From contig DASYQD010000124.1 of assembly GCA_036005845.1 (NCBI GenBank), positions 25,024 to 89,023 on the forward strand: DNA of 64,000 nt. The letters are read 5' to 3'. This document shows positions 23,693-47,250 of this stretch, one piece after another (position 1 is the first letter of the stretch; every line of letters starts with the position of its first letter). The position numbers and the translations under genes are program-made. A model generated the notes under the pieces. It saw nothing but the letters and a program-made list of their open reading frames with translations. It did not search any database and was not told the origin of the DNA. Origin of the DNA: Thermoanaerobaculia bacterium. GTDB taxonomy: Bacteria > Acidobacteriota > Thermoanaerobaculia > Multivoradales > JAIOJS01.

Positions 23693-24743
23693 CGCGACGC
23701 TGACGAAGAAGGACTTCCAATCCGACCAGGAGGTCCGCTGGTGCCCTGGCTGCGGCGACTACGCCATCCTGTCGGCGGTGCAGGCCGTCTTCCCCGAGCT
23801 CGGCATCCCCAAGGAGCGCATGGTGATCGTCTCGGGGATCGGCTGCAGCAGCCGCTTCCCGTATTACATGAACGTCTACGGCTTCCACACCATCCACGGC
23901 CGCGCGCCGGCGATCGCCACCGGGCTCAAGACCTCGCGCCCCGACCTCGACGTCTGGGTGGTGACCGGCGACGGCGACGCGCTGTCGATCGGCGGCAACC
24001 ACCTGATCCACACCATCCGACGCAACGTCGGCTTGAAGATCCTGCTCTTCAACAACCGCATCTACGGCTTGACGAAGGGTCAGTACTCGCCGACCAGCGA
24101 GATGGGGAAGAAGACCAAGTCGACGCCCTACGGCTCGGTCGACTATCCCTTCAACCCGCTGTCGGTGGCGCTCGGCGCCGGCGCGACGTTCGTGGCGCGC
24201 AGCGTCGACGTCTTTCAGCAGCACCTCAAGCAGACGCTGAAGCGGGCCGCCGAGCACCAAGGCACCGCCTTCGTCGAGATCTACCAGAACTGCAACATCT
24301 TCAACGACGGCGCCTTCGAGAAGATGACCGAGAAGGAGACGCGCGAGGAGACGACGCTCTACCTCGAGCACGGCAAGCCGCTGGTCTACGGCGCCAAGAA
24401 GGACAAGGGCATCCGCCTCGACTCGCGCACGCTCAAGCTGGAGGTGGTGCCGATCGAGAACGGCGTGCTGCCCGACGATCTGGTGGTGTGGGACGAGACG
24501 CGCAGCGACCCGGCGATCGCCTTCATGCTGGCGCAGCTCGAGCCGCCGGCGTTCCCGACCCCGGTCGGCGTCTACCGCGCCGTCTCGCGGCCGACCTACG
24601 AGCAGCGCGTCATCGGCCAGATCCAGGCCCAGCTCGACACCAAGGGAACGGGCACGCTGGAGTCGCTGCTCTACTCGGGCGAGGTGTGGCGCGTCGAGAG
24701 CGACGGCAACATCGTTCGCCAGGGCACGGGGAGCCTGGAATGA
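23679..24743 (+). CDS. korB: 2-oxoacid:ferredoxin oxidoreductase subunit beta (TPP-binding, KorB-type)
   Basis: CPGCGDY Fe-S/TPP motif and GIGCSSRFPYY..GDGD TPP-binding fold. The GTG start overlaps the korA stop. Confidence 0.85.
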   Translation: MAPTSATLTKKDFQSDQEVRWCPGCGDYAILSAVQAVFPELGIPKERMVIVSGIGCSSRFPYYMNVYGFHTIHGRAPAIATGLKTSRPDLDVWVVTGDGDALSIGGNHLIHTIRRNVGLKILLFNNRIYGLTKGQYSPTSEMGKKTKSTPYGSVDYPFNPLSVALGAGATFVARSVDVFQQHLKQTLKRAAEHQGTAFVEIYQNCNIFNDGAFEKMTEKETREETTLYLEHGKPLVYGAKKDKGIRLDSRTLKLEVVPIENGVLPDDLVVWDETRSDPAIAFMLAQLEPPAFPTPVGVYRAVSRPTYEQRVIGQIQAQLDTKGTGTLESLLYSGEVWRVESDGNIVRQGTGSLE

Positions 24744-25048
24744 GCGCCGAAGCGAAGCCCGTCGAGGAGCTCGGCCCGGGCGACTTCCAAACGCTCGTCG
24801 GCCAGCGTTTCACCGTGGTGCTCAACGAGGGCGACTTCGGCCTCGAGCTCGTCAACGTGCGCGAGCTGCCGGCCCACTCGCGGCGCCAGGGGCAGCCCTT
24901 CGTGCTGCTGTTTCGCGGCCCGCAGCAACCGGTATTGCCGCAACGGACGTACACGCTGGCGCACGCCGAGCTCGGCCAGTTGGTGATCTTCCTCGTGCCG
25001 GTGCAGGGCGGTCCCGCCGGCATCGAGTACGAGGCCGTCTTCAACTGA
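24740..25048 (+). CDS. Small hypothetical protein (102 aa) translationally coupled to korB
   Basis: The ATG at 24740 overlaps the korB stop (ATGA). It lies in a different frame from korB, has no homolog that I recognise, and ends just before a strong hairpin terminator. Confidence 0.4.
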   Translation: MSAEAKPVEELGPGDFQTLVGQRFTVVLNEGDFGLELVNVRELPAHSRRQGQPFVLLFRGPQQPVLPQRTYTLAHAELGQLVIFLVPVQGGPAGIEYEAVFN

Positions 25049-25152: not shown

Positions 25153-26628
25153 CTACGGCGGTGGGGCGGCAACGGCCATTGCGGGCCGCGGCGGCGGCAA
25201 GTCGATGCAGGGTGTGCTCGTCGGGTCGCCGAGCGGACGGTCGGCTTCGACGGCGGCGCGTGAGAGTCGATTGGTTGCCGCCAGCCGCTGCGTCAGATCG
25301 CCGGCGGACGCGGGCGTGTAGCCGCCGACCGCGAGAATGCCAGTGTCGCGCTGGCGTAGCGTCACCGCCGGCGCACCGCCGCCCGTCTCGGCGAAGCGGT
25401 TCTCGGCCAGCGTGACGCAGGCGCGCGCGGTGCCGTTGCTCTCGACGAGGAGCGCGGGGTAGGAGGCGCTGCCGGCGGCGGCGCCGGCCGCCAGGTCGTT
25501 GTCGCGCGCCGCGATGCCGAGGGCGGTCTGCGCGCCGGCGACGGCGTAGAGCGCTTCGGCGCGTTGGCCGGCGATGCGGTTGCCGGTCAGCGTCAGCGCC
25601 GCGTCGCCGGCGTCGCCGAGCAGCAGCACGACGCCGCGCGCGCTGCCGGCGCCGCCGACGACGTTGTCGTCGAGCTCGGCGCGCAGGTGGCCGCGGCCGT
25701 TGGCGGCGAGCAGGACCGCCGTCTCGCGCGCCGGCAGGTCGTTGCCGCGGGCGGCGATCTCCAGCGTTGCGTCGTCGCGCACGACGGCGGCGAGCGCGGC
25801 CGAGGTGCCGGCGGGAAGGTCGCCGACCAGACCGCTGCCCGCGAGCTCGAGGCGGAGCCGGCTCCGGCCTGCGGCGGCGAGCGCTACGCCGTTGCCGGCG
25901 ACGCCGTCGAGCACCGTCGACTCGGCGGCGACGGTCAGCGACGCGTCGCCGCCGGCGCGCACCGCGAGCCCGTCGTCGGTGGCGCCGCCGCCGAGCAGCG
26001 TCACGCCGTCGAGCTCGAGGCGTGCCTCGCCGCGCGCGCTCTCGACCGCGAGCGCGGGACCGCCGCCGGCGCGCAGGTCGGTCGACTCGACGTGCACGAG
26101 GCCGCGCGGGTCGCGCAGCCGCAACCCGCCGTCGACGTGGACGCCGGCGAGGTGCACATCGGCGAGGCCGTCGCCGGCGATGGCGTCACCGCCACCCGCG
26201 ATCGCCAGCCCCTCGACGCGCACGCCGTCGGCGAGCACCAGGACTGGTCCGCCGGCCGCGGCGAGCAGCGGACGGTCGCCGGCAGGCAGCGGTGTCTCGC
26301 CCTCGGCCTCGAAGCGCGCGCCGCTGCCGATCAGCCGCTGGAAAGGGCGTAGCCGGATGCCGGCGTCGAGCCCGCGCGAGGTGCCGTCGCCGCGGAAGAC
26401 GTAGAGGGTGTCGCCGGCGTCGGCGGCCCGCTCGGCACGGGCGAGGCGGTCGAAGGGCGCGACCATCGAGCCGTCGCCGTCGGGCGCCGCCGTGTTGTCG
26501 ACGTACCAGGTGCGCCCGGGGCGCGCGGGCTTGCCCTGGTCGATGGCGCGCGCCGGCGGGGCTGACGCCAGCGCGGCCGCGGCGAGCAGCGCGGCGGCGA
26601 CGGACCGGGGGAGAGGAGTGTTGCCCAT
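25153..26628 (-). CDS. Secreted right-handed parallel beta-helix repeat protein
   Basis: Signal peptide (MGNTPLPRSVAAALLAAAALASAPPARA), then many short Gly/Ala/Asp-rich beta-helix-like rungs (GDGLADVHLAGVHVDGG..., GNGVALAAAGRSRLRLELAGSG...). Confidence 0.55.
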   Translation of the reverse strand: MGNTPLPRSVAAALLAAAALASAPPARAIDQGKPARPGRTWYVDNTAAPDGDGSMVAPFDRLARAERAADAGDTLYVFRGDGTSRGLDAGIRLRPFQRLIGSGARFEAEGETPLPAGDRPLLAAAGGPVLVLADGVRVEGLAIAGGGDAIAGDGLADVHLAGVHVDGGLRLRDPRGLVHVESTDLRAGGGPALAVESARGEARLELDGVTLLGGGATDDGLAVRAGGDASLTVAAESTVLDGVAGNGVALAAAGRSRLRLELAGSGLVGDLPAGTSAALAAVVRDDATLEIAARGNDLPARETAVLLAANGRGHLRAELDDNVVGGAGSARGVVLLLGDAGDAALTLTGNRIAGQRAEALYAVAGAQTALGIAARDNDLAAGAAAGSASYPALLVESNGTARACVTLAENRFAETGGGAPAVTLRQRDTGILAVGGYTPASAGDLTQRLAATNRLSRAAVEADRPLGDPTSTPCIDLPPPRPAMAVAAPPP

Positions 26629-26794: not shown

Positions 26795-27079
26795 TCAGCG
26801 AGTCGCGAGCACCCGCTGCCAGCTCGGGTCGCGCTCGACGTACTCGGCGACGAACCAGCAGGAGGGCACCACTTTCAGCCCTTCCGACTCCGCCCACTCG
26901 AGCGCGCGCTTGACCACCCGCGCCGCGATGCCGCGCCCGCGCAGCGCCGGCGGGGTGTAGGTGCTGACGAAGTCGACCGTCCGCTCGTCGAGCCGGCGAT
27001 AGACGAGGTAGGAAGTCTGGCCATCGCGCTCGTGCGTGAAGCGCTGGCGGGCGGCGTCGTGGACGATCTCGGCTGCCAT
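26795..27079 (-). CDS. Small GNAT-like N-acetyltransferase (YjdJ-type, ~94 aa)
   Basis: Compact acetyl-CoA-binding core (RGRGIAARVVKRALEWAESEGLKVVPSCWFV) typical of the PF14542-like mini-GNATs. Confidence 0.65.
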   Translation of the reverse strand: MAAEIVHDAARQRFTHERDGQTSYLVYRRLDERTVDFVSTYTPPALRGRGIAARVVKRALEWAESEGLKVVPSCWFVAEYVERDPSWQRVLATR

Positions 27080-27115: not shown

Positions 27116-27652
27116 TCAGCCGCTCGGCGCCGCGCCGCCGACCGGCCGCTCGAGCAGCAGGTAGACGCCCTTGTCCTCCCGGAGCGCAAAGCCGAGACGG
27201 GCGTAGAGCCGCAGCGCCGGGTTGAAGCGCTCGACGTGGATGCTCACCGGCTTGCCCGCCGCGTCGGCCTCCGCGAACACCGCCTGCAGCAGCGCGCCGC
27301 CGAGTCCCTTGCCGCGGTGCTCGGGCAGCAGGCTGATGTCGACGATGCGCACCTCGCGCGGCCAGCGGTCGACGTAGAGACGGCCGGCGGGCACGCCGGC
27401 GACTTCGACGACGTCGAAAGTGGCCGTCGTGTACTGCTCGCGGTACCACGCGTGCTGCGCCTCGAACTGCTGGCGCACGAAGGCCTCGCGCTGCTCGCGC
27501 GGCCACTCGACGCCGGCGAGCTCTTCCTCGCGCGAGCTGGCATACAGGCGCAGCAGGAAGGGCAGGTCGTCGTCGGTCACCGGCCGTAGGCTCAGCGGCG
27601 GCGGCACCATGCCGCCTCGAGGCTCCGCATGCTCGTCGGCCGGCGAGGTCAC
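27116..27652 (-). CDS. GNAT family N-acetyltransferase
   Basis: HRGKGLGGALL (Q/RxxGxG/A motif A) and the LYARLGF motif. Confidence 0.7.
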   Translation of the reverse strand: MTSPADEHAEPRGGMVPPPLSLRPVTDDDLPFLLRLYASSREEELAGVEWPREQREAFVRQQFEAQHAWYREQYTTATFDVVEVAGVPAGRLYVDRWPREVRIVDISLLPEHRGKGLGGALLQAVFAEADAAGKPVSIHVERFNPALRLYARLGFALREDKGVYLLLERPVGGAAPSG

Positions 27653-27662
27653 TACGCTGCGA

Positions 27663-28631
27663 TCACTCGCGCTCGACGGGCTCGAAGCTCACCATCAGCG
27701 ACAGCAGCTCGACCGGCCGCGTCTGCCCGGCCTTCGGCATCGGCAGCTCGCGCTCGCTCGACCAGGTGTCGGGCGCCAGGCCGAGCAGGTAGACGCCGCG
27801 CTGCAGCCGCGGACGGCCGGCGAACCAGTCGACGGTGAAGCTGGTACTGAAGCGGCCGCCGATCGGGCCGACCGACGGTGAGAGCAGCGACGACGGGCGC
27901 CGGGTGAACGGATTGTTCGGCGCCGGGGCCGCTTCGAGCAGGAAGTCGAGCGCTCCGTCGGCGCCCAGCGGCGCCACGAAGCGGATCGGCGCCGCCGGGT
28001 CGGGCGCCGGCCGGCTGTGGTAGCCCCAGGCGGTGAACGGCAGCGGCTGCCGCCGCCGCGCCGGCTCGTCCGATGGGAAGTAGACGGTGACGTAGGCGTT
28101 GCGCACCGAGGTCGGGTTCGGGATCGGGTAGAGGCCGTGGATGCGCACCTCCACCAGCTCGTTGGCGAGCTCCTGCTGGCCGGCGATGAGCGACGTCGCC
28201 GGCACCACCCGGGCCGGCTCCGGCGGCCGGCCCGCCTCGGAGCGGATGCCGCGGTTGAGCGCGGCCGCGGCGATACCGCGGTAGCGGCGCCAGGTCTCGC
28301 TGCCGTCGACGAAGCCGACGGACATCGGCCGCACCACGTCGGCCGCTCCGGTGAGCGCCTCCTGCGCCCGCGCCGGCCGCGCCAGTGCGGGAAGCAGCGC
28401 CGCGGCGCCGCCCCACGCCAGCAGATCGCGCCGGCGCAGACGAAGGAGCGCGCCGCCCGGCGAATCGCCGAGCGGCGCCCTCACGTCGATGCCGGTGAGC
28501 GCTCCGCTCGGGGTTGGCTCGCGCCGCGCGGGCTCTCCGCGCGGCGCCGGGCCCCCTCGCACATCACGGCTGCCGTCCCCCTCGCTGCCTTCGTCGTGCG
28601 CAGGCTGCCGCCGCTCGCTCCGTGCTGACAT
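27663..28631 (-). CDS. Tat-signal secreted protein of unknown function
   Basis: Twin-arginine motif LRRRDLLAWGGAAALLPALARPARAQE. The GTG at ~28484 gives a more typical signal length than the ORF-track start at 28631. No recognisable domain. Confidence 0.5.
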   Translation of the reverse strand: MSARSERRQPAHDEGSEGDGSRDVRGGPAPRGEPARREPTPSGALTGIDVRAPLGDSPGGALLRLRRRDLLAWGGAAALLPALARPARAQEALTGAADVVRPMSVGFVDGSETWRRYRGIAAAALNRGIRSEAGRPPEPARVVPATSLIAGQQELANELVEVRIHGLYPIPNPTSVRNAYVTVYFPSDEPARRRQPLPFTAWGYHSRPAPDPAAPIRFVAPLGADGALDFLLEAAPAPNNPFTRRPSSLLSPSVGPIGGRFSTSFTVDWFAGRPRLQRGVYLLGLAPDTWSSERELPMPKAGQTRPVELLSLMVSFEPVERE

Positions 28632-28670: not shown

Positions 28671-29183
28671 TCAAGTCCGCGGCGGGTACACGCCTTGGAG
28701 TGCGATGCAGAAGTAGAAGGTGAGGTAAGGCTGCAGGTTGTTGTGCGGCTGGTCGCCCCCGGCGGGCGGCAGCGCATTGTCCGACATCGACACCAACCCG
28801 GTCAACGTGCTCTGGTAGGCGTTGACGTAACGCGCCAACGAGTTGCCCGCCGGGTTCGGATTGTCGCCCAAGGAAGTGGCGGCGCGCAGGGTGTGCGAAT
28901 GGGACGGGATCTCCGACTCCAACAGCGAGACGGTCTCCGAGCCGCCGGTCTCGCCGAGGTCGTGAAGCGACAGGCCGGGGCCCTGTCCGGGGTGCATCGG
29001 CGCGCGGCCCTGCAGGTCGGGCAGCGCGAAGTTCGACTTGCCGTTGCCTCCATAGGTGGTGCCCAGGAGCGAGAACAGCGCCGTGTTCTGCGACAGCGGC
29101 AGGAGCTGGCCGTCGCACCACGCCCACCCCTTGGGCGCGAAGTTGAACGGGAAGATGCGGATCTCGGCTACGAATGGATCCAT
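28671..29183 (-). CDS. Phage tail collar domain protein (MdpB/microcystin-dependent-protein-like), paralog 1
   Basis: FVAEIRIFPFNFAPKGWAWCDGQLLPLSQNTALFSLLGTTYGGNGKSNFALPDLQGRAPMH..GGSETVSLLESEIPSHSH matches the PF07484-type tail-collar consensus, judged from memory. Confidence 0.8.
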   Translation of the reverse strand: MDPFVAEIRIFPFNFAPKGWAWCDGQLLPLSQNTALFSLLGTTYGGNGKSNFALPDLQGRAPMHPGQGPGLSLHDLGETGGSETVSLLESEIPSHSHTLRAATSLGDNPNPAGNSLARYVNAYQSTLTGLVSMSDNALPPAGGDQPHNNLQPYLTFYFCIALQGVYPPRT

Positions 29184-29199
29184 GAGCTCTCCTCCGGAA

Positions 29200-29709
29200 T
29201 CATGTAGGCGACGGGAAGATCCCGAACAACGAGATGATGAAGTTCACGCACAGGTAGGGCTGGAAGTTGGTGTGCGGTTGGCTGCCACCCGTCGACGTGA
29301 TCGACTGCGCCGCCATGTTGGCGGTGGGCACGTCTTGCAGGTAGAAATCGACGTTGGCCGTGGTGCTCTTCGCCACCACGTTGCCGCCCGGATCCGGCAA
29401 CGTTCCGGCGTTGGCGCTTCCCAGCAGCGGGTGAGAGTGCGCCGCGATCTGGTTGACGGTGAGCGTGATCTCCTCCGCGCCGCCGGTCTCCGCCAGGATG
29501 AAGCCGTTGCCCTGGTGGATGGGGATCCTGCCGCGCAGGTCGGGTAGCGCGAAAGTGGATTGGCCGTCACCACCGTAGGTGGTGCCGATGAGGTTGAAGA
29601 GGGTCTCGTATTCCGAGATCGGCAGCAGCTGGCCTTCGCAGAACATCCACCCGGCGGGCGCGAAGTTGCCGGCGAACATGCGGATCTCGCCAACGTAGGG
29701 TTGTGCCAT
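29200..29709 (-). CDS. Phage tail collar domain protein, paralog 2
   Basis: YVGEIRMFAGNFAPAGWMFCEGQLLPISEYETLFNLIGTTYGGDGQSTFALPDLRGRIPIH. Only the C-terminal 169 codons of the 1387-aa ORF in the track are real. Upstream, the frame stays open across the giant gene. Confidence 0.8.
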   Translation of the reverse strand: MAQPYVGEIRMFAGNFAPAGWMFCEGQLLPISEYETLFNLIGTTYGGDGQSTFALPDLRGRIPIHQGNGFILAETGGAEEITLTVNQIAAHSHPLLGSANAGTLPDPGGNVVAKSTTANVDFYLQDVPTANMAAQSITSTGGSQPHTNFQPYLCVNFIISLFGIFPSPT

Positions 29710-29720
29710 TGGCGTCTCCT

Positions 29721-30224
29721 TTAAGTCGCGCTGGGGAAGATGCCCTGCAGGGCGATGCAGTAGCTGAGGGTCAGGAACGGCTGCATGTTCAGGTGGGCCT
29801 GGCTCCCGCCGGTGTTGGTCACCGACCCGGGGTTCAGCGCCACCAGACCGGTAGCGGTCTGGTAGACGTTGTTGACCGTGCGGGCGAGCACGCTCGGATT
29901 GTTCGGGATCGGCACGTTGCCGTCGGTGGGGGACGCCTGCAGCACGTGGGTGTGCTGTGGGAGCTCGGCGATCGACAGGGTGTGCGCCTGCTCGCCGCCG
30001 CGCTCGCCCAGGGTGTGGCCGCTGCCGACGTGGATCGGCACCCGGCCGCGGAGGTCCGGCAGGCCGAAGTTGACGCGGCCGTCGCCTCCGAAGGTGGTGC
30101 CCAGCAGCGAGAACAGGGCCTGGTTCTGGTTGATGGGCAGCAGCTGCCCGTTGCACAACGCCCACCCCTTGGGTGCGAACACAAAGGACATCAGACGGAC
30201 TTCCGAGAGAAACGGCTCTGCCAT
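29721..30224 (-). CDS. Phage tail collar domain protein, paralog 3
   Basis: FLSEVRLMSFVFAPKGWALCNGQLLPINQNQALFSLLGTTFGGDGRVNFGLPDLRGRVPIH..GGEQAHTLSIAELPQHTH. Confidence 0.8.
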   Translation of the reverse strand: MAEPFLSEVRLMSFVFAPKGWALCNGQLLPINQNQALFSLLGTTFGGDGRVNFGLPDLRGRVPIHVGSGHTLGERGGEQAHTLSIAELPQHTHVLQASPTDGNVPIPNNPSVLARTVNNVYQTATGLVALNPGSVTNTGGSQAHLNMQPFLTLSYCIALQGIFPSAT

Positions 30225-30278
30225 GTCCCCCCCTCTGGTTTAACCGGCGTCCACGGATATGAACATTGCCCGCCGCCG

Positions 30279-33200
30279 CTACGGCGCCAGCGGGTTCTGG
30301 CACGTACCGTCGGCCACGGCCGTGTAGGTCGTCGCGTGGGTCGAACGCGCCGTCTGGCCCGCCGGCGTCGGGTTCTGGCCGACGATGAAGTTCTGGATGT
30401 TGGTGTCGTCGGCGGCGTTGCCCGTCAGGCGCTCGAGGTTGTACGTCGAGGTGTCGCGCTGGCGGACCAGGTAGTCCTGGTTGCCGCCCTCGCCGTCGGC
30501 GCTGTTTCCGTTGATGTCGACGCAAAGGTTGCTGTCGTTGCGCGCCTCGATCCGGATGGCGTGCGTCTCCGCCTGGTTGGGGCCGGCGCCGAAGGGGAAG
30601 TCGTCGTCGTCGCTGATCGGGCCGACGGTGTTGCTCCTCACCGTCACGTCGGCGTCGATGTTGCCGGCGACCGCGCTGGGGTCGCGGGTCTGGATGAAGA
30701 TGCCGTTGAGGGCGGTGTTGCGGATGATGTTGCTGCTGACGTTGGCCTTCACCGTCGGCGAGTCCTGCAGGTCGCCGGCGATGCCGAAGAAATTCTCGTT
30801 GCCCGAGCGCGGCGCGCCGACCAGGCCGATGGTGTTGCCCGTTATGTTGATGTCGAAGGTGCCGGTGCCGGCCGGGACGAACGACAGCGCGCTCGCCGAG
30901 CCGCCGTCGTTGGGAGCGATGCCGGTGTAGGCGAGCTGCACGTTGGTGATGTCGTGCCGCTGGATGGAGTTGCCGGTCGAGCTGATGCTGATGCCGAAGT
31001 TGGTGCCCACGCCGTTGCCCCAGGTGGCGCCGGAGGGATCCACGGGCGGCGCGCTGCTCACCATGTCGACGGCGTCGATGTCGCTGAACACCGTGGTGCC
31101 GGCGCCGCCGGTGATGAGGATGCCCGCCGCGGCGTTGTTCTTGACCTGGCCGCCGTTGACCACCAGCTTGACGTTGGCGCTGCCGGTGGCGGTGAGGTTG
31201 ATGCCGGCGTTGCCTTGGCCGACGACACCTTCGCCGGCGTGGTTGAGGTTGGTACCGGTGACGGTGAGCACGCTCTGCCCCGAGCTGCTGTTGGGGTCCC
31301 AGTCGAGGTTGGTGTTGCGCGACTCCTGCACCGTCGAGTTGGTGATGGTGTTGGCGCTGCCGATGAGGTCCTCGATGTGGATGCCGGAGTCCTGGATCGC
31401 GCCGCCCTCGGCCTGGGCGCCGTTGCTGTCCATCCACAGGTTGGTGAGGCTCAGCCCGCTGACGGCATCGATGGAGATGCCGCTGTCGGCGGCGTCGACG
31501 ATCGCCATGTTGCTCAGCGAAGGGTTGGTGGTGGTGAGGAGGAGCACGCCGTCGGCGGTGGTGTTCTGGATGGCACCGCCGGTGCAGGTGCCGACGCTCG
31601 AGCAGCTGCCGCCGTTGGCCTTGACCTTGAGGCCGCCCGAGCCGCCGGTGTTGTTGAGCAGGATGCCGTTGACGGCGCCGTTGGCCGCGACGCTGCGCAG
31701 CTCGATGTTGTTGGCGCTGATGGTGGTGTTGGTGACGGTGAGCGCCGTCCCGGTGGTGGTGGTCAGGGTGTTCACCAGCGCACCGGTCGCACCGGCGTTG
31801 CACGGGTTCTCGTCGCAGACCTCGACGGTGCCGCCGCCGGTGGCCGCGAAGGCGGCATTGGCGCCGGTCGAAGCCGTCAAGCCGCCGCGGAAGCTGATGG
31901 TGGCGCCGGTGTTGGTGGTGAGTGAGATCCCTTGTCCGGTGTCGCTGACCTGACCGGTGAACGCCACCGACGAGCCGCTGTCGGCATTGTTGATGGACAC
32001 CGAGCGGCCGGCGCTGCTGGTGATGGTGCCGCCGTAGGTCGCGGTGAGCACCGTCGTGCCGGCGGCCGAGTTGTCGACCGAGAACGCCGTGCCGCCGCCG
32101 CTCGACTTGGTGATCGAGCTTCCCGACGGCGCCGAGAAGGTGCCGCTCACCGTGGTGAGCGACACGCCGTTGGTGGAGGTGGTGCTCGTCAGCGAGTTGA
32201 GCTGCAGCGTGATGTCGGCGGCGCTGATCGCCGCAGCCGGGCCGGCGGTGGCCACCAGAGTGCCGGCGTTGGCGAGGACGTCGAAATCGAAGCCGCCGGT
32301 GCCGCCGGTCACGCTCAGCGCCGCCCCGCTGTCGGTGAAGATGTCGAGGTCGGTAGCGAAGTTCAACGCACCGGTCACGTTGCTCAGCACGAGGCCGTTG
32401 CCGGCGATGTGATCGCCGGAGGCGCCGATCTGCGTGTTGCCGCCAGGGACCGGCTGGATGGCGCCGCCGGGGGTGACGTCGAAGACCACGGGGTTGGCGC
32501 TGCCGGCCACCGTGATGCCGCCCACCGAGGTGCCCGTCACCACGTTGTCGTTGAAGGCGGTGATAGTGAGCGTCCCCGCCGTGTTCTGAACGTCGGCGGC
32601 GGCGCCGCTGCTGGTGAGCGTGTTGCTGGCCAGCGCCAGCGTCGCGGTGATGCTGGTGCTGCCCTGATTGACGTCGATCCCCTCGGAGGTGGCACCGCGG
32701 ATGGTGTCGTTGCTGATGGTGACGCCGATCGTGTTGGCGCCCGTGGCGGTGACGTCGATGGCGTTGGAGGTGGCGCCGGTGGCCTCGAGGTCGAGGCCGC
32801 GGATCTCGACGTTCTGCCGGTTGCCGGCGGTGGCCGGCACGTTGACGGTATTGGTGCTCGCCACCGTGCTGCGGATCCGCGCCTGGGTCGAGGCGGCCAC
32901 CAGCGAGGTGCCGAAGCCGGGGACGTCGAGGGCGATGCCCTGCCCCCACAGCTTCTGGCCGTTGCGCAGGGTGATGCTGCCGCTGTGCGGCGTGGTGGCC
33001 GTGTTGCCGGCGAAGACGTAGATGATGTCGCCATCGTTGGTCGTGGCGGCGTTGAAGGCCGCGACGCTGTCGAAGGCGTTGGTGGAGCGCCCGTCGCCGC
33101 CGGCGGCGTTGTTGGCATCGATAACGTCGCGGATGTACCAGACCCGCTGGCCGACGGCGACGTTGGCGGTCTGGTTGTTCGTCCCCGCGCCGTCGCTGAG

Positions 33201-36200
33201 CTGGAAGGTGAAGGTGTCGGCGCCGGTGAAACCGACCGCGGGCACGAAGAAGAAGTCGCCGGCGGCCGCGTTGCTGATGGTGAAGGTGCCGCCGTTGGCC
33301 GAGGAGCCCGAGCCGGTGACGACCGTCGTGGCGGCCGGACCGTCGGGGTCGGTCGGGCTGCACTTGGCCAGCAGGCTGGTGGAGTCGGTCCAGGCGGCGA
33401 CGCCCGGGGTCGTCGCGTTGACGTGGAGCTGGGTGTTGCCCGGCGTCGTGTAGTTGACGGTGTTGGCGCAGACCGGCAGGTCGTTGACCGGCGTCACGGT
33501 CACCTGCTTGTCGCCGTTGTTGCTGTTCAGCGCGCCGTCGTTGACGACGAAGCGGACGACGCGGGTGGTGGCGTTGGGGTCCTGGTCGAGGTTGTTGTAG
33601 GTCACCGAGCGCAGGCAGGTCTGGTAGGTGGCCTTGGGCTGGCTGCCGCTGATGCTGAGAGCGGTGGTACCGCCGCCGGTCACCGTGAGGCCGGCGCAGG
33701 AGGTGGCGGCGAGGCTCTCGAAGCTCACGTCGAGGACGTTGGTGATGGTCACCGTCGCCGACGTGAGGTTGGCGTTGTCGACGTCGGTCACGGTGAGGGC
33801 GTTGTCGACGACCACCGCGCCGCCGTCCTCGGTGAAGCTGGTGGCGCCGCCGGAGGTGGTCACCACCGGAGCGTCGTTGACCGGCGTCACCGTCACCGTC
33901 TTGTCGCCGTTGTTGCTGTTGCTGGTGCCGTCGTTGACGACGAAGCGGACGACGCGGTTGGGCGCGCCGGCCGGGTCCTGGTCGGTGTTGTTGTAGGTCA
34001 CCGACTGCAGGCAGGTCTGATAGGTGGCGAGCGGCTGGCTGCCGGTGATGGTCAACGTTGCCGTGCCGCTGCCGCCGACGGTGAACGCGCCGCAGGCGGT
34101 GGCCGCCAGGCTCTCGAAGCCGGCGTCCTGAACGTTGGTGATGGTCACCGTCGCCGAGGCGAGGTTGGCGTTGTCCACGTCGCTGACGGTGACGCCGGAG
34201 TCGACGACGACGGCGCCGGCGTCCTCGGTGAAGCTGGTGTTGCCGCCGGTGGTGGTGACGACCGGCGCGTCATTGACCGCGGTCACCGACACGTTCTTGG
34301 TCGCCGGCGCGCTGGAGAGGGCGCCGTCGTTGGCGACGAAGGAGATCACTCGCGTCGTCGTGCTGGGGTTGTTCGAGGTGTTGTTGTAGCGCGCCGACTG
34401 CAGGCAGGCCTGGTAGGTGGCCAGCGGCTGGCTGCCGCTGATGTTGAGCGTCGACGTGCCGCTGCCGCTCACCGTCAGCGCGCCGCAGGCGGTGGCGGTG
34501 AGCTGCTCGGAGGCGCCATCGAGCACGTTGGTGATGGTCACCGTGGCCGAGGCGAGGTTGGCGGAGTCGACGTCGGTGACGGTGACGCCGGAGTCGATCA
34601 CCACGGCGCCGGCGTCCTCGGTGAAGGCGGTGGTGCCGCCGGTGGTGGTGACCACCGGCGCGTCGTTGACCGCCGTCACGGTGACGTTCTTGGTGGCGGG
34701 CGCGCTGGAGAGAGCGCCGTCGTTGGCCACGAACGAGATGACCCGCGTCGTGGTGTTGGGGGTCTGCGAGGTGTTGTTGTAGGTCACCGACTGCAGGCAG
34801 CTCTGGTAGGCGGCCGGCGTCTGGCTGCCGGTGATGGTCAGGGTGGGAGTGCCGCTGCCGCCGACGGTGAACGCGCCGCAGGCGGTGGCCGCCAGCGCCT
34901 CGGAGCCGACGTTCAGCACGTTGGTGATGGTCACCGTGGCCGAGGCGAGGTTGCCGCTGTCGGGGTCGACGACGGTGACGCCCGAGTCGACGACCACCGC
35001 GCCGCCGTCCTCGGTGAAGGCGGTGTTGCCGGCAGTGGTGACGACGATCGGCGCGTCGTTGGACGGCGTGACGCTGACGTTCTTGGTGGCCGGCGCGCTA
35101 CTGGCGGCTCCGTCGCTGGCGACGAACGAGATCACCCGCGTCGTGGTGTTGGGGGTGTCCGAGGTGTCGTTGTAGGTCACCGACCGCAGGCAGGTCTGGT
35201 AGGTCGCAGGCGGCTGGCTGCCGCTGATGGCGAGGATCGAGGTGCCGGCACCGCCGACCGTCAGGCCCGCGCAGGAGGTGGCGTTGAGCTGCTCGAAGGC
35301 GCCGTCCTGCAGGTTGGTGATGGTCACCGTCGCCGAGGCGAGGTTGGCGGAGTCGACGTCGGTGACGGTGACGCCGTTGTCGACGACGACCGCGCCGGCG
35401 TCCTCGATGAAGGCGGTGGTGCCGCCGGTGGTGGTGACCACCGGCGCGCTGTTTACCGCCGTCACCGTCACCGTCTTGTTGGCCGTGTTGCTGGGCAGCG
35501 CGCCGTCGTTGGCGACAAAGGAGATGACGCGCGCCGTCGTGCCCGGGTCGAGGTCGGTGTTGTTGTACGTCACCGACTGCAGGCAGGCCTGGTAGGTGGC
35601 CGGCGGCTGGCTGCCGGTGATGGTGAGCGTCGGGGTGCCGCTGCCGCCGACCGTGAGCGCGCCGCAGGCGGTGGCGGCGAGCGCCTCGAAGCCGACGTCC
35701 TGCACGTTGGTGATGGTCACGGTGGCCGAAGCGAGGTTGGGGCTGTCGACGTCGGTCACGGTGACGCCGGAGTCGACGACCACCGCGCCGCCGCCCTCGG
35801 TGAAGGAGGTGCTGCCGCCGGTGGTGGTGACGACCGGGGCGTCGTTGACCGCCGCCACCGACACGCTCTTGTTGGCGGGAGCGCTGCTCGCGGCGCCGTC
35901 GTTGGCGAGGAAGGAGATCACCCGCGTCGTGGTGTTGGGATCCTGGTCGGTGTCGTTGTAGGTCACCGAGCGCAGGCAGGTCTGGTACGTCGCCAGCGTC
36001 TGGCTGCCGCTGATGGTGAGGGTGGCCGTGCCGCTGCCGCCCACCGTCAAGCCGCCGCAGGCGGTGGCGGCGAGCGCCTCGGAGCCGACGTCCTGCACGT
36101 TGGTGATGCTGACCGTCGCCGAGGCGAGGTTGGCGGAATCGACGTCGGTGACGGTGAGGCCGCTGTCGATCGTCACCGGCCCGCCGTCCTCGGTGAAGGC

Positions 36201-39020: not shown

Positions 39021-39303
39021 CGATCACCCTCCAGGTCTGCGGCCGAGACCTGTATCTATCCGAGGTTGGTGGCGCCCATCTCGCCGCCCGGAGGGAGCGC
39101 TACTCGGACCTCGACCGCCCGACGTGGCTGCCCGAAGGGATGCGAGCTCTGTTGTGATCCGGGGACATACCCTAGCAGATCGGGGCGCGCATGGGTAACC
39201 ACCCCCTTGGTGGCGCCCCGCAGGCGGCCGTCCGACGGGATTTCAAGCGGGTCCAGTCAGGGAGTTGCCATCCGCGGCCGCGATCTCGACTACCATCTAG
39301 CCC

Positions 39304-40464
39304 GTGAGGTGGCGCGGTCGGGCCGCAATCGCCGGCTGGCTCATGGTGGCGTCGTTGGCCGCGGGCTGCGCGGCGCGGCGACAGCCGGTGGTCGTCGACG
39401 CCGGGATCACGGCGATCCCGCCGGAAGCGAGCGTGCAGGCGGCGCCGCCGCCATCCGACTCGGCGCCGGCCTCCGCCGCTACCGACGAATCGGCGACGTC
39501 GGTGACGCCCGTCGCGGTTCCCACCCCCGCGCCGCCGCCGGCCGAGGCGTCTCTCCATGACCTCTGCCGCCAAGAGAGCGACAGCCCGAGCTTCGTCGAC
39601 GAGAGCCGGCGCGTTCTCGCCGAGACCTTCTGCGGCGCCACGCTCTGGTTCGACGGTCTCTTCGGCGGCACGCCCGACGTGCGCAATGCGCGCGCCGTAT
39701 CGGGCCGCGTCGAGCTGTCGGGGCTGCGCACCGACTTCGAGGGCTTCGACGGCAAGGCGCGCCTGCGCCTCAACTACGAGCTGCCGAACCTGCAGCGCCG
39801 CGTGCGCTTCTTCCTCGGCCGCGACGAGCGCAGCTTCACCTCCGATCGCCAGGAGGGTTTCGCCATCCGCTCGGCGGTGTTCGGCCTCGACGACCGCGAC
39901 GAGTGGCTGGCGGGCCTCGGCTACCGGCCGCCCGGCCGCTTCCTGCAGCGCGTCGACTTCGGCGTCGGCGCGCGGCTCAAGAGCTCGCCCGAGGTGTTCG
40001 CGCAGACGCGCTATCGCCGCAACGTCTTTCTCGGCCGCAACGACGTCTGGCGCTTCCGCGAGACGGTGTTCTGGGAGAACCGCGACGGCTTCGGCTCGAC
40101 GACCAGCCTCGACTGGGACCGCGTGCTGCGCCGCGACCTGCTGCTGCGCTGGGGCAACGTCGGCACCATCTCCGAGGCCTCGGACGGATTCGAGTGGCGC
40201 TCGGCGATGGTGCTCTACAAGAACCTGCGCGGTCTGCGCGCCATCGCGGAGGAGCTCTTCGCGCGCGGCGCCACCGACGCCGAGGTGAGCTTCCGCGAGA
40301 TCGGGGCGCGGACGATCTATCGCCAGCCGCTGCGCGCACCTTATCTATTCGGTGACCTCATCGTCGGCTACTCGTGGCCGCGCGAGCGGCGCTACCAGGC
40401 ACGCGAGGGCTCGGCGATGATCGGTCTCGGCGTCGAGCTGCTCTTTGGCCACGAGCCGTATTGA
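39304..40464 (+). CDS. Predicted lipoprotein of unknown function
   Basis: Lipobox LAAGC near the N-terminus (MRWRGRAAIAGWLMVASLAAGCAA). A Pro/Ala-rich linker is followed by a beta-rich domain with alternating aromatic and charged residues. Divergent from the giant gene. Confidence 0.5.
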   Translation: MRWRGRAAIAGWLMVASLAAGCAARRQPVVVDAGITAIPPEASVQAAPPPSDSAPASAATDESATSVTPVAVPTPAPPPAEASLHDLCRQESDSPSFVDESRRVLAETFCGATLWFDGLFGGTPDVRNARAVSGRVELSGLRTDFEGFDGKARLRLNYELPNLQRRVRFFLGRDERSFTSDRQEGFAIRSAVFGLDDRDEWLAGLGYRPPGRFLQRVDFGVGARLKSSPEVFAQTRYRRNVFLGRNDVWRFRETVFWENRDGFGSTTSLDWDRVLRRDLLLRWGNVGTISEASDGFEWRSAMVLYKNLRGLRAIAEELFARGATDAEVSFREIGARTIYRQPLRAPYLFGDLIVGYSWPRERRYQAREGSAMIGLGVELLFGHEPY

Positions 40465-46900: not shown

Positions 46901-47250
46901 CAGTGGAACCCTCCCGTGAGCCGCGGCAACAGCGGCCGCGCTTCCGCCGTCGCGGCGATCAGCGGCGCGCGCGGGTTGGTTCGCCAGGGCGCCTCCTCGC
47001 CGCGGGTCGCCATCCACAGCGCCGCCGGCACCGCCACCATGACCACTGCCGCCGCGGCCACCCACCGTCCGGGCGCACCCTCCCGCTGCGGCGGCGGCAG
47101 GGCGCACGCCTGGAAGCGCATGGCGTCCGCCATGGCGTTGCCGCAGCGGTCGCAGCCCGCGAGGTGTTCCTCGAGGCGCTCGCGCTGTTCGGGGAAGAGC
47201 TGGCCGTCGAGGTAGGCGGCCAGGCGCTCGGGCTCAGGACAGCGGGGCAA
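43957..47250 (-). CDS. Anti-sigma factor (zinc-finger) / transmembrane / TPR-like / CHAT-domain (caspase-like protease) fusion protein
   Basis: The N-terminus has the zinc-binding anti-sigma motif (EEHLAGCDRCGNAM). A single TM helix follows (WVAAAAVVMVAVPAALWMA). A ~700-aa helical-repeat region follows. The C-terminal CHAT-like domain carries candidate catalytic His (VVHVATHALVDD) and Cys (TVVLAVCGGTGD). The start lies 17 nt downstream of the ECF sigma gene stop. Confidence 0.7.
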   Translation of the reverse strand: MPRCPEPERLAAYLDGQLFPEQRERLEEHLAGCDRCGNAMADAMRFQACALPPPQREGAPGRWVAAAAVVMVAVPAALWMATRGEEAPWRTNPRAPLIAATAEARPLLPRLTGGFHWAPVTEVKRGISASNGGADAWRYYAAAEAVRQAAVTSSQPETLGALADAHYLVGNLDSALATLGRALAARPSDPGLRSDLAAVYLARGMQDGGSADAAAALELASAALRSAPALLEAKFNQAIALELLGLRAEAIRAWTDYGELETDAHWRGEARTHLARFGRTPSGASTPTLRRAAERGDRELPALVAAHRFAARRLVEHDLLRDWGDAIVQGDESAATQLLATASRIANLYRQQTGDSRLEDQIDEATTSDRVSLRLLAEAQRSLAQGELLLEEGSWRGAEDHLRLAVSSFPHDGIGLRRAQVELLAIRLVSAGPSDGLIAEIDRSAGAQETDPVSRGRLAQARGLAATLRGRPSEAIGHYQSAMAAYRLVGEDEPVIWLDYLLGEAYTLAGDQRNAWQHRIAGIAGVPSLGDDPQRAQNILLQTATSCLLLGHVNLASALLDEASTQSATLRPYQLVTLHLRRAQIALQLDDHGSAAVEVGRAAVALSSVDNSAMRTRLLPELAAVRAATAGSPAIAIAASSRALAGFEQLQQSVRLPGLFLQRANAHRADGDFDAAARDLAEGISLLESTPAAPHDLLWLDRLDGAGRLYDEMAAAALDRGRTAEAFDWIERARAHSLGSTASIQNIGLAELPAALDTETAVLSYALLGERAVLWRADHRGVRTITLPVRPAQVAAWSAIIDADLTAGTWTPASDEAAAELYRTLVAPAELADTARRLVIVADKSLESLPFSALGGARHKFLMQEHVLELAPSASYFVHARAREIALSQGQRTPPFLLGDPALDDHLFPGLQRLSGAADEVRAVAALYRGAVVVTGERATRSTLVAAMGDHSVVHVATHALVDDALPSRSALALAPLQPGDGSGALYADEIPSLSFARTRTVVLAVCGGTGDPLSGTAGRVSLARSFLAANVPTVVAALWPVGDQRSVPLLTALHTRLSSGEDAASALRSAQLQLLASPDPALRSPANWALFQALGG

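What the first reader, a model, noticed from the sequence alone, without database searches (positions are those of the whole stretch)
28671..30224. Three tandem phage-tail-collar (MdpB-like) paralogs sit directly downstream of the giant surface protein, in a non-phage context
Three ~170-aa paralogs share the tail-collar signature (EIR.F..NFAP.GW..C.GQLLPI.QN.ALFSLLGTT.GGDG...F.LPDLRGR.P.H). They follow the 8.7-kb repeat protein on the same strand, at 11-55 nt spacing. No other phage structural genes, integrase or tRNA are nearby, and none has a signal peptide. The C-terminal halves diverge, which is the position where tail-fibre-like proteins carry specificity. The arrangement suggests a co-functioning set with the giant protein, for example receptor-binding or lectin modules, chaperone-like tail-fibre assembly partners, or diversified binding specificities. 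This looks like a dedicated module, not prophage debris.
Basis: partly seen in the sequence, partly recalled or inferred. Interest (0 to 1): 0.6.

Follow-up and report, generated by a model that had tools for sequence, protein, structure and literature searches.

The report
Cellular three-subunit tail-fibre-tip gene cassette
Three adjacent genes for phage-tail-fibre-tip-like proteins are not phage debris but the fixed A-B-C core of an undescribed gene cassette (giant beta-helix surface protein, acetyltransferase, small DUF6916 protein) that is shared almost unchanged by bacteria of at least ten phyla.

Summary
Three minus-strand genes (A 30224-29721, B 29709-29200, C 29183-28671) each match Pfam PF07484 (E 1e-27 to 1e-30). 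They are 45-54% identical and follow the 2,913-aa protein at gaps of 54, 11 and 16 nt. The 64-kb window holds no phage genes and no tRNA.

Comparison with 80 genomes from about ten phyla shows this is a conserved cassette. Nearly every locus has a triplet. A, B and C are separate ancient orthologue classes in a fixed order (mean best match 76% to another locus, 50% to a same-locus paralogue). Extra copies come as whole triplets. The scaffold is about 82% conserved, whereas a 45-residue tip insert is about 33% conserved. An HxH metal motif is present in 243 of 244 sequences.

Three further partners recur:
- a GNAT acetyltransferase (74/80 loci);
- DUF6916 (70/80);
- a giant secreted Ig/cadherin plus beta-helix protein (36/42 fully flanked loci).

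Tip divergence co-varies with the giant's beta-helix (r about 0.4, Mantel p ≤ 0.001).

Best reading: one A:B:C heterotrimeric knob working with the giant protein. A virophage triplet gives an experimental precedent. The function is unknown, and the lack of any export signal on A, B and C is unexplained.

The parts
29721..30224 (-). Collar subunit A (167 aa), first gene of the triplet
   Evidence: PF07484 at 94.1 bits, E 4.8e-27. Identical to P0001, 'tail fiber protein / microcystin-dependent protein' from a Thermoanaerobaculia MAG. Class-A orthologues occupy first position in 67 of 80 loci with order ABC.
29200..29709 (-). Collar subunit B (169 aa), second gene
   Evidence: PF07484 at 103.5 bits, E 5.6e-30. 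ATG at 29709 with an AGGAG 8 nt upstream. Similar to solved tail-fibre tips 8kec (3e-7) and T4 gp12 (3e-5), with the HSH motif aligned to HQH of 8kec.
28671..29183 (-). Collar subunit C (170 aa), third gene
   Evidence: PF07484 at 94.5 bits, E 3.5e-27, plus Gp10_C at E 5e-4. Carries a class-specific GPGLSL insert.
30279..39020 (-). Giant secreted protein (2,913 aa). It has a signal peptide, an N-domain, an internal IPTL-type motif with a second hydrophobic segment, about 12-16 Ig/cadherin-like 131-aa repeats, and a roughly 950-aa right-handed beta-helix ending in a conserved 110-aa two-cysteine cap.
   Evidence: Translation. Pfam and NCBIfam hits. Tandem repeat of 393 nt, 11.9 copies. AF2 model of aa 1957-2913 with pLDDT 85 and pTM 0.81, all-beta. 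Best folds are GH87, PL6, pertactin and tailspikes. Homologues carry PF13229. Cap motif. A profile hit occurs beside the triplet in 36 of 42 fully flanked loci.
27116..27610 (-). GNAT acetyltransferase (core cassette component)
   Evidence: Acetyltransf_1 at E 8e-12, plus FR47. A BLAST homologue lies beside the triplet in 74 of 80 loci, often abutting the stop of C. The public gene call is 164 aa. There is only generic GNAT similarity to solved structures; the best is an N-terminal acetyltransferase at 1.2e-7.
24740..25048 (+). DUF6916 protein (102 aa, core cassette component, opposite strand)
   Evidence: PF21880 at E 8e-29. Present in 70 of 80 loci, often in two copies. About 8,000 50%-identity clusters in public data, nearly all stand-alone proteins of about 100 aa. 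The AF2 model is a six-stranded beta-barrel, pLDDT 85. No significant PDB, viral-fold or PHROG match.
27663..28631 (-). Lineage-specific accessory protein with a twin-arginine (Tat) type signal (LRRRDLLAWGGAAALLPALARPARA)
   Evidence: Sequence. No Pfam hit. Homologues in the same position in L012, L022, L036, L098 and L100 have clear RRxF Tat signals. An unrelated Tat-signal family sits there in Xanthomonadales-type loci. Found in only 6 of the 80 base loci.
26795..27079 (-). Second small GNAT (Acetyltransf_CG, 94 aa), accessory
   Evidence: PF14542 at E 8e-24. It recurs next to DUF6916 in L100 but is not found in the 80 base loci.
25153..26628 (-). Secreted 491-aa protein whose N-terminal part is paralogous to the start of the giant's beta-helix, accessory
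   Evidence: Signal peptide plus the 'WYVDN..GDGS...PF' beta-helix cap motif. BLAST matches to the giants of 10 loci over aa 39-250.

Best explanation
A, B and C are the three different subunits of one pseudo-threefold heterotrimeric knob of the phage tail-fibre-tip type (T4 gp12/gp37-like collar plus head). Six histidines, one HxH from each chain, would clamp a metal ion in the knob. A conserved scaffold presents three hypervariable tip loops of about 45 residues.

The knob is not viral. It is the invariant core of an ancient, horizontally mobile cellular cassette. The other core members are a GNAT acetyltransferase, one or two DUF6916 beta-barrel proteins, and a giant secreted protein made of Ig/cadherin repeats plus a single-chain right-handed beta-helix of about 950 aa.

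The knob most likely acts as the recognition or partner-binding element of that giant surface protein. It would do so either by docking on the beta-helix or by sharing its ligand. GNAT and DUF6916 appear to form a second sub-pair that matures or regulates the system, possibly by N-terminal acetylation of the conserved Met-Ala/Ser-x-Pro termini of A, B and C.

Shown here: fold family, motif conservation, orthology and gene order, cassette composition, non-phage context, and co-variation.

Inferred: the heterotrimer, metal binding, physical contact with the giant protein, extracellular action, and the role of the GNAT.
For: **Family and motif.** PF07484 matches at E 1e-27 to 1e-30. Sequence matches to solved tail-fibre tips 8kec and T4 gp12. 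HxH is present in 243 of 244 family members.

**One unit of three.** Of 80 loci from many phyla, 67 have order ABC, 2 have ABCABC, and the rest are rotations or contig-truncated. In a test independent of the window, the nearest relative in another locus sits at the same ordinal position in 203 of 216 cases. No same-locus paralogue is ever the closest relative; mean best identity is 49.8% within a locus against 75.7% between loci. Eleven class-specific residues are conserved across phyla.

**Receptor-binding-protein-like pattern.** Scaffold identity is 81-84%, against 32-35% for the tip.

**Cassette.** GNAT in 74/80 loci. DUF6916 in 70/80. Giant beta-helix protein in 36/42 fully flanked loci. 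The same layout appears in independently annotated records of Aminobacter, Ruegeria TM1040 and Paenibacillus, and in metagenome contigs with differing flanks.

**Coupling.** Tip and giant beta-helix identities correlate at r = 0.39-0.42, partial r = 0.40 given the collar, Mantel p ≤ 0.001. GNAT and DUF6916 correlate at r = 0.48. The other cross-component pairs give r ≤ 0.17; collar versus tip (two regions of the same proteins) is 0.38.

**Precedent.** Three consecutive PF07484 proteins of virophage DSLV2 co-purify as a 1:1:1 heterotrimer (PMC12724248).

**Not phage.** No phage genes or tRNA in the window. The best phage identity is 41%. Only 12 loci were found in 2.9 million viral contigs, against more than 595 in genomes.
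Against: Orthology, order and triplet-wise duplication would also fit three obligatorily co-required homotrimers.

A, B, C, GNAT and DUF6916 have no export signal in any phylum, whereas the giant protein is Sec- or T9SS-targeted. How they would meet is therefore unexplained. A related single-gene collar protein that is found outside cells (R. pomeroyi YP_165745.1) does carry a Sec signal, which makes the absence here more pointed. Tat-signal neighbours that could carry a folded knob occur in only 6 of 80 loci.

The co-variation is correlational. Pairwise identities on a shared tree can correlate without any physical contact.

The one apparent giant-collar fusion protein (P0238) is a frameshift artefact.

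The GNAT shows only generic similarity to known enzymes.
Confidence: 0.6

Rival explanations
1. There are three separate homotrimeric knobs (AAA, BBB, CCC), each with its own ligand. Together they give the cell or the giant protein three binding specificities.
For: Known phage tips with this fold (T4 gp12, gp37) are homotrimers, from established structural knowledge and the PDB matches. The paralogues differ most in the tip: 19-36% tip identity between A, B and C. All three keep the HxH motif that a homotrimer would also need.
Against: Independent binders would be expected to vary in copy number and to show lineage-specific duplication or loss. Instead the number is three or six, duplication is by whole triplets, the order is fixed, and three orthologue classes predate the spread across phyla. 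Class-specific scaffold residues are conserved across phyla. The only tested three-gene collar set is a heterotrimer (PMC12724248).
Confidence: 0.2
2. The cassette's small proteins act inside the cell. The knob with its variable tips would be a cytoplasmic binder or sensor, for example of the giant protein's precursor or of an invading element. GNAT would be the effector or modifier and DUF6916 its partner. It would not be a surface adhesin tip.
For: A, B, C, GNAT and DUF6916 lack any signal peptide in diderm and monoderm phyla alike. A genuinely extracellular collar protein carries one. GNAT and DUF6916 co-vary strongly, like an enzyme-partner pair (r = 0.48). Cassettes often sit among toxin-antitoxin and Abi genes.
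Against: No component matches any PADLOC defence model. The giant exported protein is a core, co-varying member, which ties the system to the cell surface. The fold is otherwise known only from extracellular binding tips. The GNAT has no similarity to tRNA-acetylating toxin families beyond the general fold.
Confidence: 0.15
3. The three genes are the remains of a prophage or tailocin tail-fibre region, or are tail-fibre assembly chaperones retained by chance next to an adhesin.
For: The Pfam family name and NCBI's automatic 'tail fiber protein' label. There is distant (at most 41%) similarity to minor tail proteins of Microbacterium and Arthrobacter phages.
Against: The 64 kb holds no phage structural, lysis or integration genes and no tRNA. 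The genes are intact with ribosome-binding sites. The same cassette sits in unrelated chromosomal contexts across about ten phyla under strong purifying selection. It is very rare in viral contigs. The proteins are the tip domain itself, not a chaperone family.
Confidence: 0.03

Closest known systems
Receptor-binding tips of T4 short and long tail fibres (gp12, gp37; also the gp10 C-terminal domain) and the solved 'long tail fiber' 8kec
   Same: Same Pfam collar domain, and the same order of conserved elements: collar helix and strands, HxH, variable head insert, then a returning C-terminal strand (GGSQxHxNxQP). Direct sequence matches at E 5.5e-9 to 3e-3. The HxH corresponds to the histidines that bind the axial metal in gp12 and gp37 (established structural knowledge).
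   Different: Here there is no fibre shaft at all, since the collar starts at residue 7. Three different genes replace one. The context is cellular, with GNAT, DUF6916 and a giant single-chain beta-helix protein. Identity to any phage protein is at most 41%.
Tripartite tail proteins of virophage DSLV2 (Aquatic Virophage 1 lineage), PMC12724248
   Same: Three consecutive, same-strand, shaft-less PF07484 proteins of similar size. They were shown by co-purification, native PAGE and EM to form a 1:1:1 heterotrimer with a variable head patch.
   Different: The virophage proteins are viral, lie next to capsid genes, and are proposed to sit on capsomers and bind Synechococcus LPS. Their triplet shows no GNAT, DUF6916 or giant protein. 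Low-GC triplets in IMG/VR (L083, L084) are equidistant from A, B and C. If these are of the virophage type, which was not checked, they suggest an independent triplication.
Single-gene bacterial COG4675 / 'MdpB' collar proteins: RhiB of the Rhizobium rhiABC operon and R. pomeroyi YP_165745.1
   Same: They are stand-alone bacterial collar-domain proteins of about 170-220 aa with the same motifs. JGI labels A 'microcystin-dependent protein'.
   Different: These are single genes in other operons. The R. pomeroyi protein has a Sec signal peptide and is found in exoproteomes. A, B and C have no signal and always come as a triplet within the cassette.
Phage tailspikes and bacterial beta-helix adhesins or depolymerases (pertactin, Ag43, PfbA, GH87, PL6, AlgE4), as comparators for the giant partner
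   Same: A long right-handed parallel beta-helix. These are the top structural matches of the modelled C-terminal 957 aa. Homologues carry PF13229.
   Different: The matches are weak (E 2e-3 to 0.3, TM below 0.3). No catalytic family can be assigned. This helix is about 950 aa in a single chain, follows Ig/cadherin repeats, and ends in a family-specific two-cysteine cap.

Membership tests
Pfam PF07484 phage tail collar domain (COG4675 'MdpB') | Profile match above the curated gathering score | tested here: met
   94.1, 103.5 and 94.5 bits against a cut-off of 24. JGI names the identical protein 'microcystin-dependent protein'.
gp12/gp37-type knitted trimeric metal-binding tip | Sequence relationship to solved tips | tested here: met
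   8kec at E 5.5e-9; T4 gp12 (1ocy, 1pdi, 5iv5) at E 9e-4 to 3e-3.
gp12/gp37-type knitted trimeric metal-binding tip | HxH motif supplying the axial metal ligands | tested here: met
   Invariant H91 and H93 in A, B and C. Present in 243 of 244 homologues. Aligned to HQH of 8kec. Actual metal binding was not testable.
gp12/gp37-type knitted trimeric metal-binding tip | Homotrimer formed at the C-terminal end of a long fibre shaft | tested here: not met
   There is no shaft, since the collar match starts at residue 7-8 of proteins of 167-170 aa. Three distinct orthologue classes replace one gene.
gp12/gp37-type knitted trimeric metal-binding tip | Trimeric quaternary structure | not testable with these tools
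Phage or prophage tail-fibre gene | Embedded among phage structural, lysis or integration genes, often at a tRNA | tested here: not met
   No tRNA. Only cellular Pfam families were found across the 64 kb. Unknown ORFs have no PHROG hits. Related loci have housekeeping flanks.
Phage or prophage tail-fibre gene | Closest relatives are viral | tested here: not met
   The best of 334 phage records is 41% identical. Only 12 loci were found in IMG/VR. Cellular homologues reach 57-92%.
Virophage DSLV2-type tripartite collar heterotrimer | Three consecutive same-strand collar genes of similar length | tested here: met
Virophage DSLV2-type tripartite collar heterotrimer | Demonstrated 1:1:1 heterotrimer | not testable with these tools
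   Support is indirect only: fixed order, orthology, and duplication by triplets.
Virophage DSLV2-type tripartite collar heterotrimer | Viral genome context next to capsid genes, with shared descent of the three positions | tested here: not met
   The context is cellular. The low-GC IMG/VR triplets L083 and L084 do not sort into classes A, B and C. DSLV2 sequences themselves were not available for comparison.
Secreted single-gene bacterial collar proteins (e.g. R. pomeroyi YP_165745.1) | N-terminal Sec signal peptide | tested here: not met
   YP_165745.1 begins MSKNAFTTFATAAALSLSLIAPASQARA. A, B and C begin MAEPFLSE, MAQPYVGE and MDPFVAE, directly at the collar.

The most novel reading that the evidence does not exclude
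The cassette builds a cell-encoded, tail-fibre-like recognition device. A single-chain right-handed beta-helix has three non-equivalent faces. An A:B:C heterotrimer would cap or grip it, with three different subunits resolving the symmetry mismatch that a homotrimer could not. This would give a domesticated phage receptor-binding tip on a giant bacterial surface fibre. Its specificity would evolve jointly in the tips and the helix. The GNAT-DUF6916 pair would mature or gate it, and the knob would leave the cell by a route that is not yet recognised, since it has no signal peptide.
Probability: 0.2. Interest if true: 0.8.

Novelty: new variant of a known kind. Interest (0 to 1): 0.62.

Why it matters
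The collar tip is one of the best-understood phage receptor-binding folds. Here it is a fixed three-gene unit in a purely cellular cassette. That cassette is very common in soil, sediment and water bacteria: more than 8,000 90%-identity clusters for subunit A alone, and about 8,000 50%-identity clusters for DUF6916. It has crossed at least ten phyla with about 82% scaffold conservation. I found no description of it in the searchable literature.

If the heterotrimer and its link to the giant beta-helix protein hold, three things follow.
- It would be a widespread, unstudied cell-surface recognition system, with programmable tips like those of phage receptor-binding proteins.
- It would assign partners to a DUF family and to a large class of 'Ig-like domain-containing' giant proteins.
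- It would show that heterotrimeric collar knobs, so far demonstrated only in a virophage, are mainly a bacterial invention.

The lack of any export signal also poses a clear, testable question about how such a knob would reach the surface. Cultured carriers exist for genetic work, including Aminobacter, Ruegeria sp. TM1040, Deinococcus, Paenibacillus and Comamonas.

Tried and rejected
- **Tat hitch-hiking.** The idea was that the folded, metal-bearing knob is exported with the Tat-signal protein encoded just after C. This is attractive for the window and its close relatives. However, the two Tat-signal families occur in only 6 of 80 loci, so it cannot be the general mechanism.
- **Rosetta-stone fusion.** P0238 (beta-helix plus Collar) is a frameshifted read-through gene call and is not evidence.
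- **Anti-phage defence system.** No PADLOC hits for any component.
- **DUF6916 as a known phage or chaperone fold.** Foldseek found no significant match against PDB or BFVD, and there was no PDB sequence match or PHROG match.
- **A specific enzyme family for the beta-helix.** Only generic beta-helix matches were found.
- **GNAT subfamily.** Only weak generic hits to RimI, streptothricin/nourseothricin acetyltransferases, AAC(3) and an N-terminal acetyltransferase.
- **Literature.** 'MdpB' is swamped by dental chemistry. Searches for COG4675, PF07484, 'tail collar domain' and DUF6916 found the virophage paper, RhiB, soil metaproteome and exoproteome mentions, but nothing on this cassette. Two multi-term searches were unproductive.
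- **R. pomeroyi exoproteome protein.** It turned out to be a different, signal-bearing single-gene subtype, so it is not evidence that A, B and C are secreted.
Full report
**What is there.** The window is 71% G+C and comes from a Thermoanaerobaculia (Acidobacteriota) metagenome-assembled genome. Subunit A is 100% identical to P0001, which carries that label.

On the minus strand, a 2,913-aa ORF (39020..30279) is followed by three short genes:
- A, 30224..29721, 167 aa;
- B, 29709..29200, 169 aa;
- C, 29183..28671, 170 aa.

The gaps are 54, 11 and 16 nt. Each short gene has a purine-rich ribosome-binding site, and no terminator-like site lies between the genes on that strand.

B is hidden in the mechanical ORF list, because its frame stays open far upstream. 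The ATG at 29709 gives the N-terminus MAQPYVGE, shared by most orthologues.

All three proteins match PF07484 at 94-104 bits against a cut-off of 24. They are 45-54% identical to each other, with 60 invariant positions. They also match solved tail-fibre tips by sequence: 8kec at E 5.5e-9, and T4 gp12. An invariant HxH aligns with the HQH of 8kec. From established structural work on T4 gp12 and gp37, these histidines bind a metal ion on the trimer axis. The collar match starts at residue 7-8, so there is no shaft and no room for a signal peptide.

**Context in the window.** No tRNA or tmRNA was found. Pfam scans of the large ORFs across the 64 kb found only cellular functions:
- PriA, glycosyltransferases and a methyltransferase;
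- complex I subunits and pyruvate:ferredoxin oxidoreductase;
- aldehyde dehydrogenase, FdhD, a CHAT protein and a hybrid histidine kinase;
- a 2-oxoacid dehydrogenase E1, an ATP-dependent DNA ligase and SspB;
- an ECF sigma factor, Sir2 and a sulfotransferase.

Ten ORFs with no Pfam match also have no PHROG match.

**The triplet is a conserved unit.** The best 80 come from the following groups, and A is 57-83% identical across them:
- Alpha-, Beta- and Gammaproteobacteria;
- Acidobacteriota, Chloroflexota, Verrucomicrobiota and Bacteroidota;
- Actinomycetota, Planctomycetota and Eremiobacterota.

Megaplasmids of cultured Aminobacter, Ruegeria, Tritonibacter, Deinococcus, Comamonas, Paenibacillus, Spirosoma, Pseudoalteromonas and Azospirillum also carry triplets.

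Wherever the contig allows, nearly every locus has three collar genes, or six. When sorted by similarity to the window's A, B and C, the pattern is as follows:
- 67 loci read A-B-C;
- two read ABCABC;
- three read BCA, and single loci read CBA and BAC;
- the remainder are cut by contig ends or disrupted.

A test that does not use the window gives the same result. In 72 loci with exactly three genes, the nearest relative in another locus occupies the same ordinal position in 203 of 216 cases. No protein is ever closer to a paralogue in its own locus than to a protein elsewhere; mean best identity is 49.8% within a locus against 75.7% between loci.

The triplication is therefore old. There is no concerted evolution, and copy number changes only by whole triplets. 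Eleven scaffold positions carry class-specific residues that are conserved across phyla.

**Conserved scaffold, variable tip.** For each class, the scaffold comprises everything up to HxH plus everything from GGSQxH onwards. It is 81-84% identical to the window protein on average. The roughly 45-residue insert between those motifs is only 32-35% identical and varies in length. This is the pattern of phage receptor-binding proteins.

Clustering of neighbouring ORFs, profile searches and gene-called contigs identify three further recurrent partners.

1. *GNAT acetyltransferase.* The window gene is 27610..27116. A homologue lies in 74 of 80 loci, often abutting the end of C.
2. *DUF6916 (PF21880).* The window gene is 24740..25048 on the opposite strand. 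It occurs in 70 of 80 loci, often in two copies.
3. *A giant protein.* Of 42 loci with at least 8 kb on both sides, all have an ORF of at least 1000 aa. In 36 of them an ORF matches a profile of the window giant's last 957 residues.

The flanks of these cassettes differ from locus to locus and are housekeeping genes. Toxin-antitoxin genes are often nearby. The cassette therefore moves as an island.

There are two layouts:
- giant-A-B-C-(X)-GNAT followed by a reversed DUF6916, as in the window, Aminobacter and Ruegeria;
- DUF6916/GNAT-A-B-C-giant, as in many Acidobacteriota, Chloroflexota, Verrucomicrobiota and Bacteroidota.

The slot 'X' holds lineage-specific proteins. In the window it is a 322-aa protein with a twin-arginine signal. 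Relatives carry the same family or an unrelated Tat-signal family, and alphaproteobacteria carry a different 400-490-aa protein.

**The partners.**

*The giant protein.* It has a signal peptide, Ig/cadherin-like repeats (a 393-nt unit, 11.9 copies) and a C-terminal region with no Pfam hit. With a 30-sequence alignment, that region folds as a long all-beta solenoid (pLDDT 85, pTM 0.81). Its best structural matches are all right-handed beta-helices: GH87 glucanase, PL6 lyases, pertactin, phage tailspikes, AlgE4 and PfbA. The scores are weak, so no enzyme family can be assigned. Several homologues carry PF13229.

The helix ends in a roughly 110-aa cap with two conserved cysteines and a D[FI]R[LF]RQR...L[PE]G...C-P-x-P motif. 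This cap is found across phyla, either at the protein's terminus or internally.

Export signals follow the phylum: Sec signal peptides, T9SS C-terminal domains in Bacteroidota, and IPTL-type motifs in proteobacteria-like versions. The giant protein is therefore exported.

*DUF6916.* It models confidently as a small six-stranded barrel. It has no significant match in PDB or viral structure libraries, by PDB sequence, or in PHROGs. It forms about 8,000 50%-identity clusters, nearly all stand-alone.

*The GNAT.* It shows only generic similarity to known enzymes.

None of the components matches a PADLOC defence model.

**Evidence for functional coupling.** I computed pairwise identities between 41-43 loci for five elements: the ABC scaffold, the ABC tips, the giant beta-helix, GNAT and DUF6916.

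| Pair | r | Mantel p |
|---|---|---|
| Tip vs giant beta-helix | 0.39-0.42 (partial 0.40 given scaffold) | ≤ 0.001 |
| GNAT vs DUF6916 | 0.48 | 0.001 |
| Scaffold vs giant | 0.14-0.17 | 0.06-0.08 |
| Tip vs GNAT, tip vs DUF6916, giant vs GNAT | 0.16-0.17 | 0.005-0.03 |
| Giant vs DUF6916 | 0.08 | not significant |

They suggest two sub-pairs: tips with the giant helix, and GNAT with DUF6916. The result is correlational and uses few loci, so I treat it as suggestive.

**Mechanism.** The most economical reading is that A, B and C assemble into one pseudo-threefold A:B:C knob. The arguments are:
- the fold is an intertwined trimer;
- exactly three non-interchangeable classes are always co-inherited in order;
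- duplication is by triplets;
- each class keeps its own scaffold signature.

There is also a direct experimental precedent. Three consecutive PF07484 proteins of virophage DSLV2 co-purify as a 1:1:1 heterotrimer, form fibres of about 16 nm, and bind cyanobacterial cells (PMC12724248).

I could not model the complex. The alternative of three co-required homotrimers therefore remains open, at about 0.2.

Variable tips point to ligand or partner recognition, and the co-variation points to the giant beta-helix as partner or co-specificity determinant. The conserved N-termini are Met-Ala/Ser-(Glu/Gln/Asp)-Pro-Phe/Tyr. After methionine removal these would be typical substrates of Rim-type N-terminal acetyltransferases. 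The GNAT's best solved relative is annotated as an N-terminal acetyltransferase. That is a lead, not a result.

**The main unexplained point.** A, B, C, GNAT and DUF6916 lack export signals in every phylum, yet the giant protein is exported. A different, single-gene collar protein that is found in Ruegeria pomeroyi exoproteomes does have a Sec signal, so the absence here is meaningful.

Tat hitch-hiking on the downstream Tat-signal protein would suit a folded, metal-bearing knob in this window. It cannot be general, because such proteins occur in only 6 of 80 loci. A cytoplasmic role for the small proteins is therefore a serious rival, at about 0.15.

**Comparison with what is known.** The proteins are members of PF07484/COG4675, and by sequence they are relatives of gp12/gp37-type tips. 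They are not phage tail-fibre genes:
- the context test fails;
- the best phage identity is 41%;
- IMG/VR yields only 12 loci. One of these (L081) is a cellular-type ABC+GNAT cassette, and two are low-GC triplets that do not sort into A, B and C.

They resemble the DSLV2 triplet in design but not in context or descent. They differ from single-gene RhiB-type and R. pomeroyi-type collar proteins.

COG4675 proteins appear among those reported in soil metaproteomes (PMC5579227), which shows the family is expressed. Whether those particular proteins are of the triplet type is unknown.

In the searchable literature I found no description of the cassette or of DUF6916.

**Verdict.** I rate the finding as a new variant of a known kind: a cellular, probably heterotrimeric, collar-tip knob embedded in a widespread four-family cassette of unknown function. 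Interest is 0.62.

Noticed in passing
window 38420-38510 (aa 173-199 of the giant protein, minus strand); also L008, L010, L023, L057, L061, L063: An IPTL-CTERM-type sorting signal (IPTLSQWGLLALILLLAGMAAFKLRRR) lies inside the giant protein instead of at its C-terminus. It follows a signal peptide and an N-domain of about 140 aa. After it come a second hydrophobic segment and a conserved 'LDGQ..DW.G' start of the ectodomain. Six other giants share this layout, so it is a conserved architecture and not a gene fusion. It could be a membrane hairpin or an internal processing site.
   Followed up: partly
window 33472-38156: There is a tandem array of a 393-nt (131-aa) Ig/cadherin-like unit, 11.9 copies at 81% matches. 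It generates long spurious antisense and alternative-frame ORFs (e.g. 31932..39560 +, 29200..33363 -) and a strong GC/AT skew.
   Followed up: partly
window 25153-26628 (-): A 491-aa protein has a signal peptide and the same beta-helix N-cap motif as the giant protein (TWYVDN..GDGS..PF). It is a short secreted paralogue inside the cassette, and it matches the giants of 10 other loci over aa 39-250.
   Followed up: partly
window 27663-28631 (-); L096:11580-12200, L098:11622-12410, L100:11821-12537: Proteins encoded directly after subunit C carry twin-arginine (Tat) signals. They belong to two unrelated lineage-specific families of unknown function. This may be a route for exporting a folded knob in those lineages only.
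   Followed up: partly
41 related loci (window plus L001-L100 subset): GNAT and DUF6916 identities co-vary more strongly (r = 0.48, Mantel p = 0.001) than either does with the collar proteins or the giant protein. This hints that they form an enzyme-partner or enzyme-substrate pair.
   Followed up: partly
L087-L090 (IMG/VR contigs): These contigs encode 92-99-aa 'collar-only' proteins. They keep the N-terminal collar and the C-terminal strand but lack the whole tip insert.
   Followed up: no
L083, L084 (IMG/VR, 34-36% GC, 4.5-5 kb): These contigs carry triplets of collar proteins of about 205 aa that are equally distant from A, B and C. They may be virophage-type triplets that arose by an independent triplication.
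   Followed up: no
P0238 (homologue of the giant protein's C-terminal region): In this relative, the region after the beta-helix carries an HEIEHLRGQNH zinc-metalloprotease-type motif. Its apparent fusion to a collar protein is a frameshifted gene call.
   Followed up: partly
window 43957-47250 (-): A 1,097-aa protein has an N-terminal anti-sigma zinc finger (zf-HC2), TPR repeats and a C-terminal CHAT protease domain. It lies about 5 kb from the cassette and has no evident link to it.
   Followed up: no
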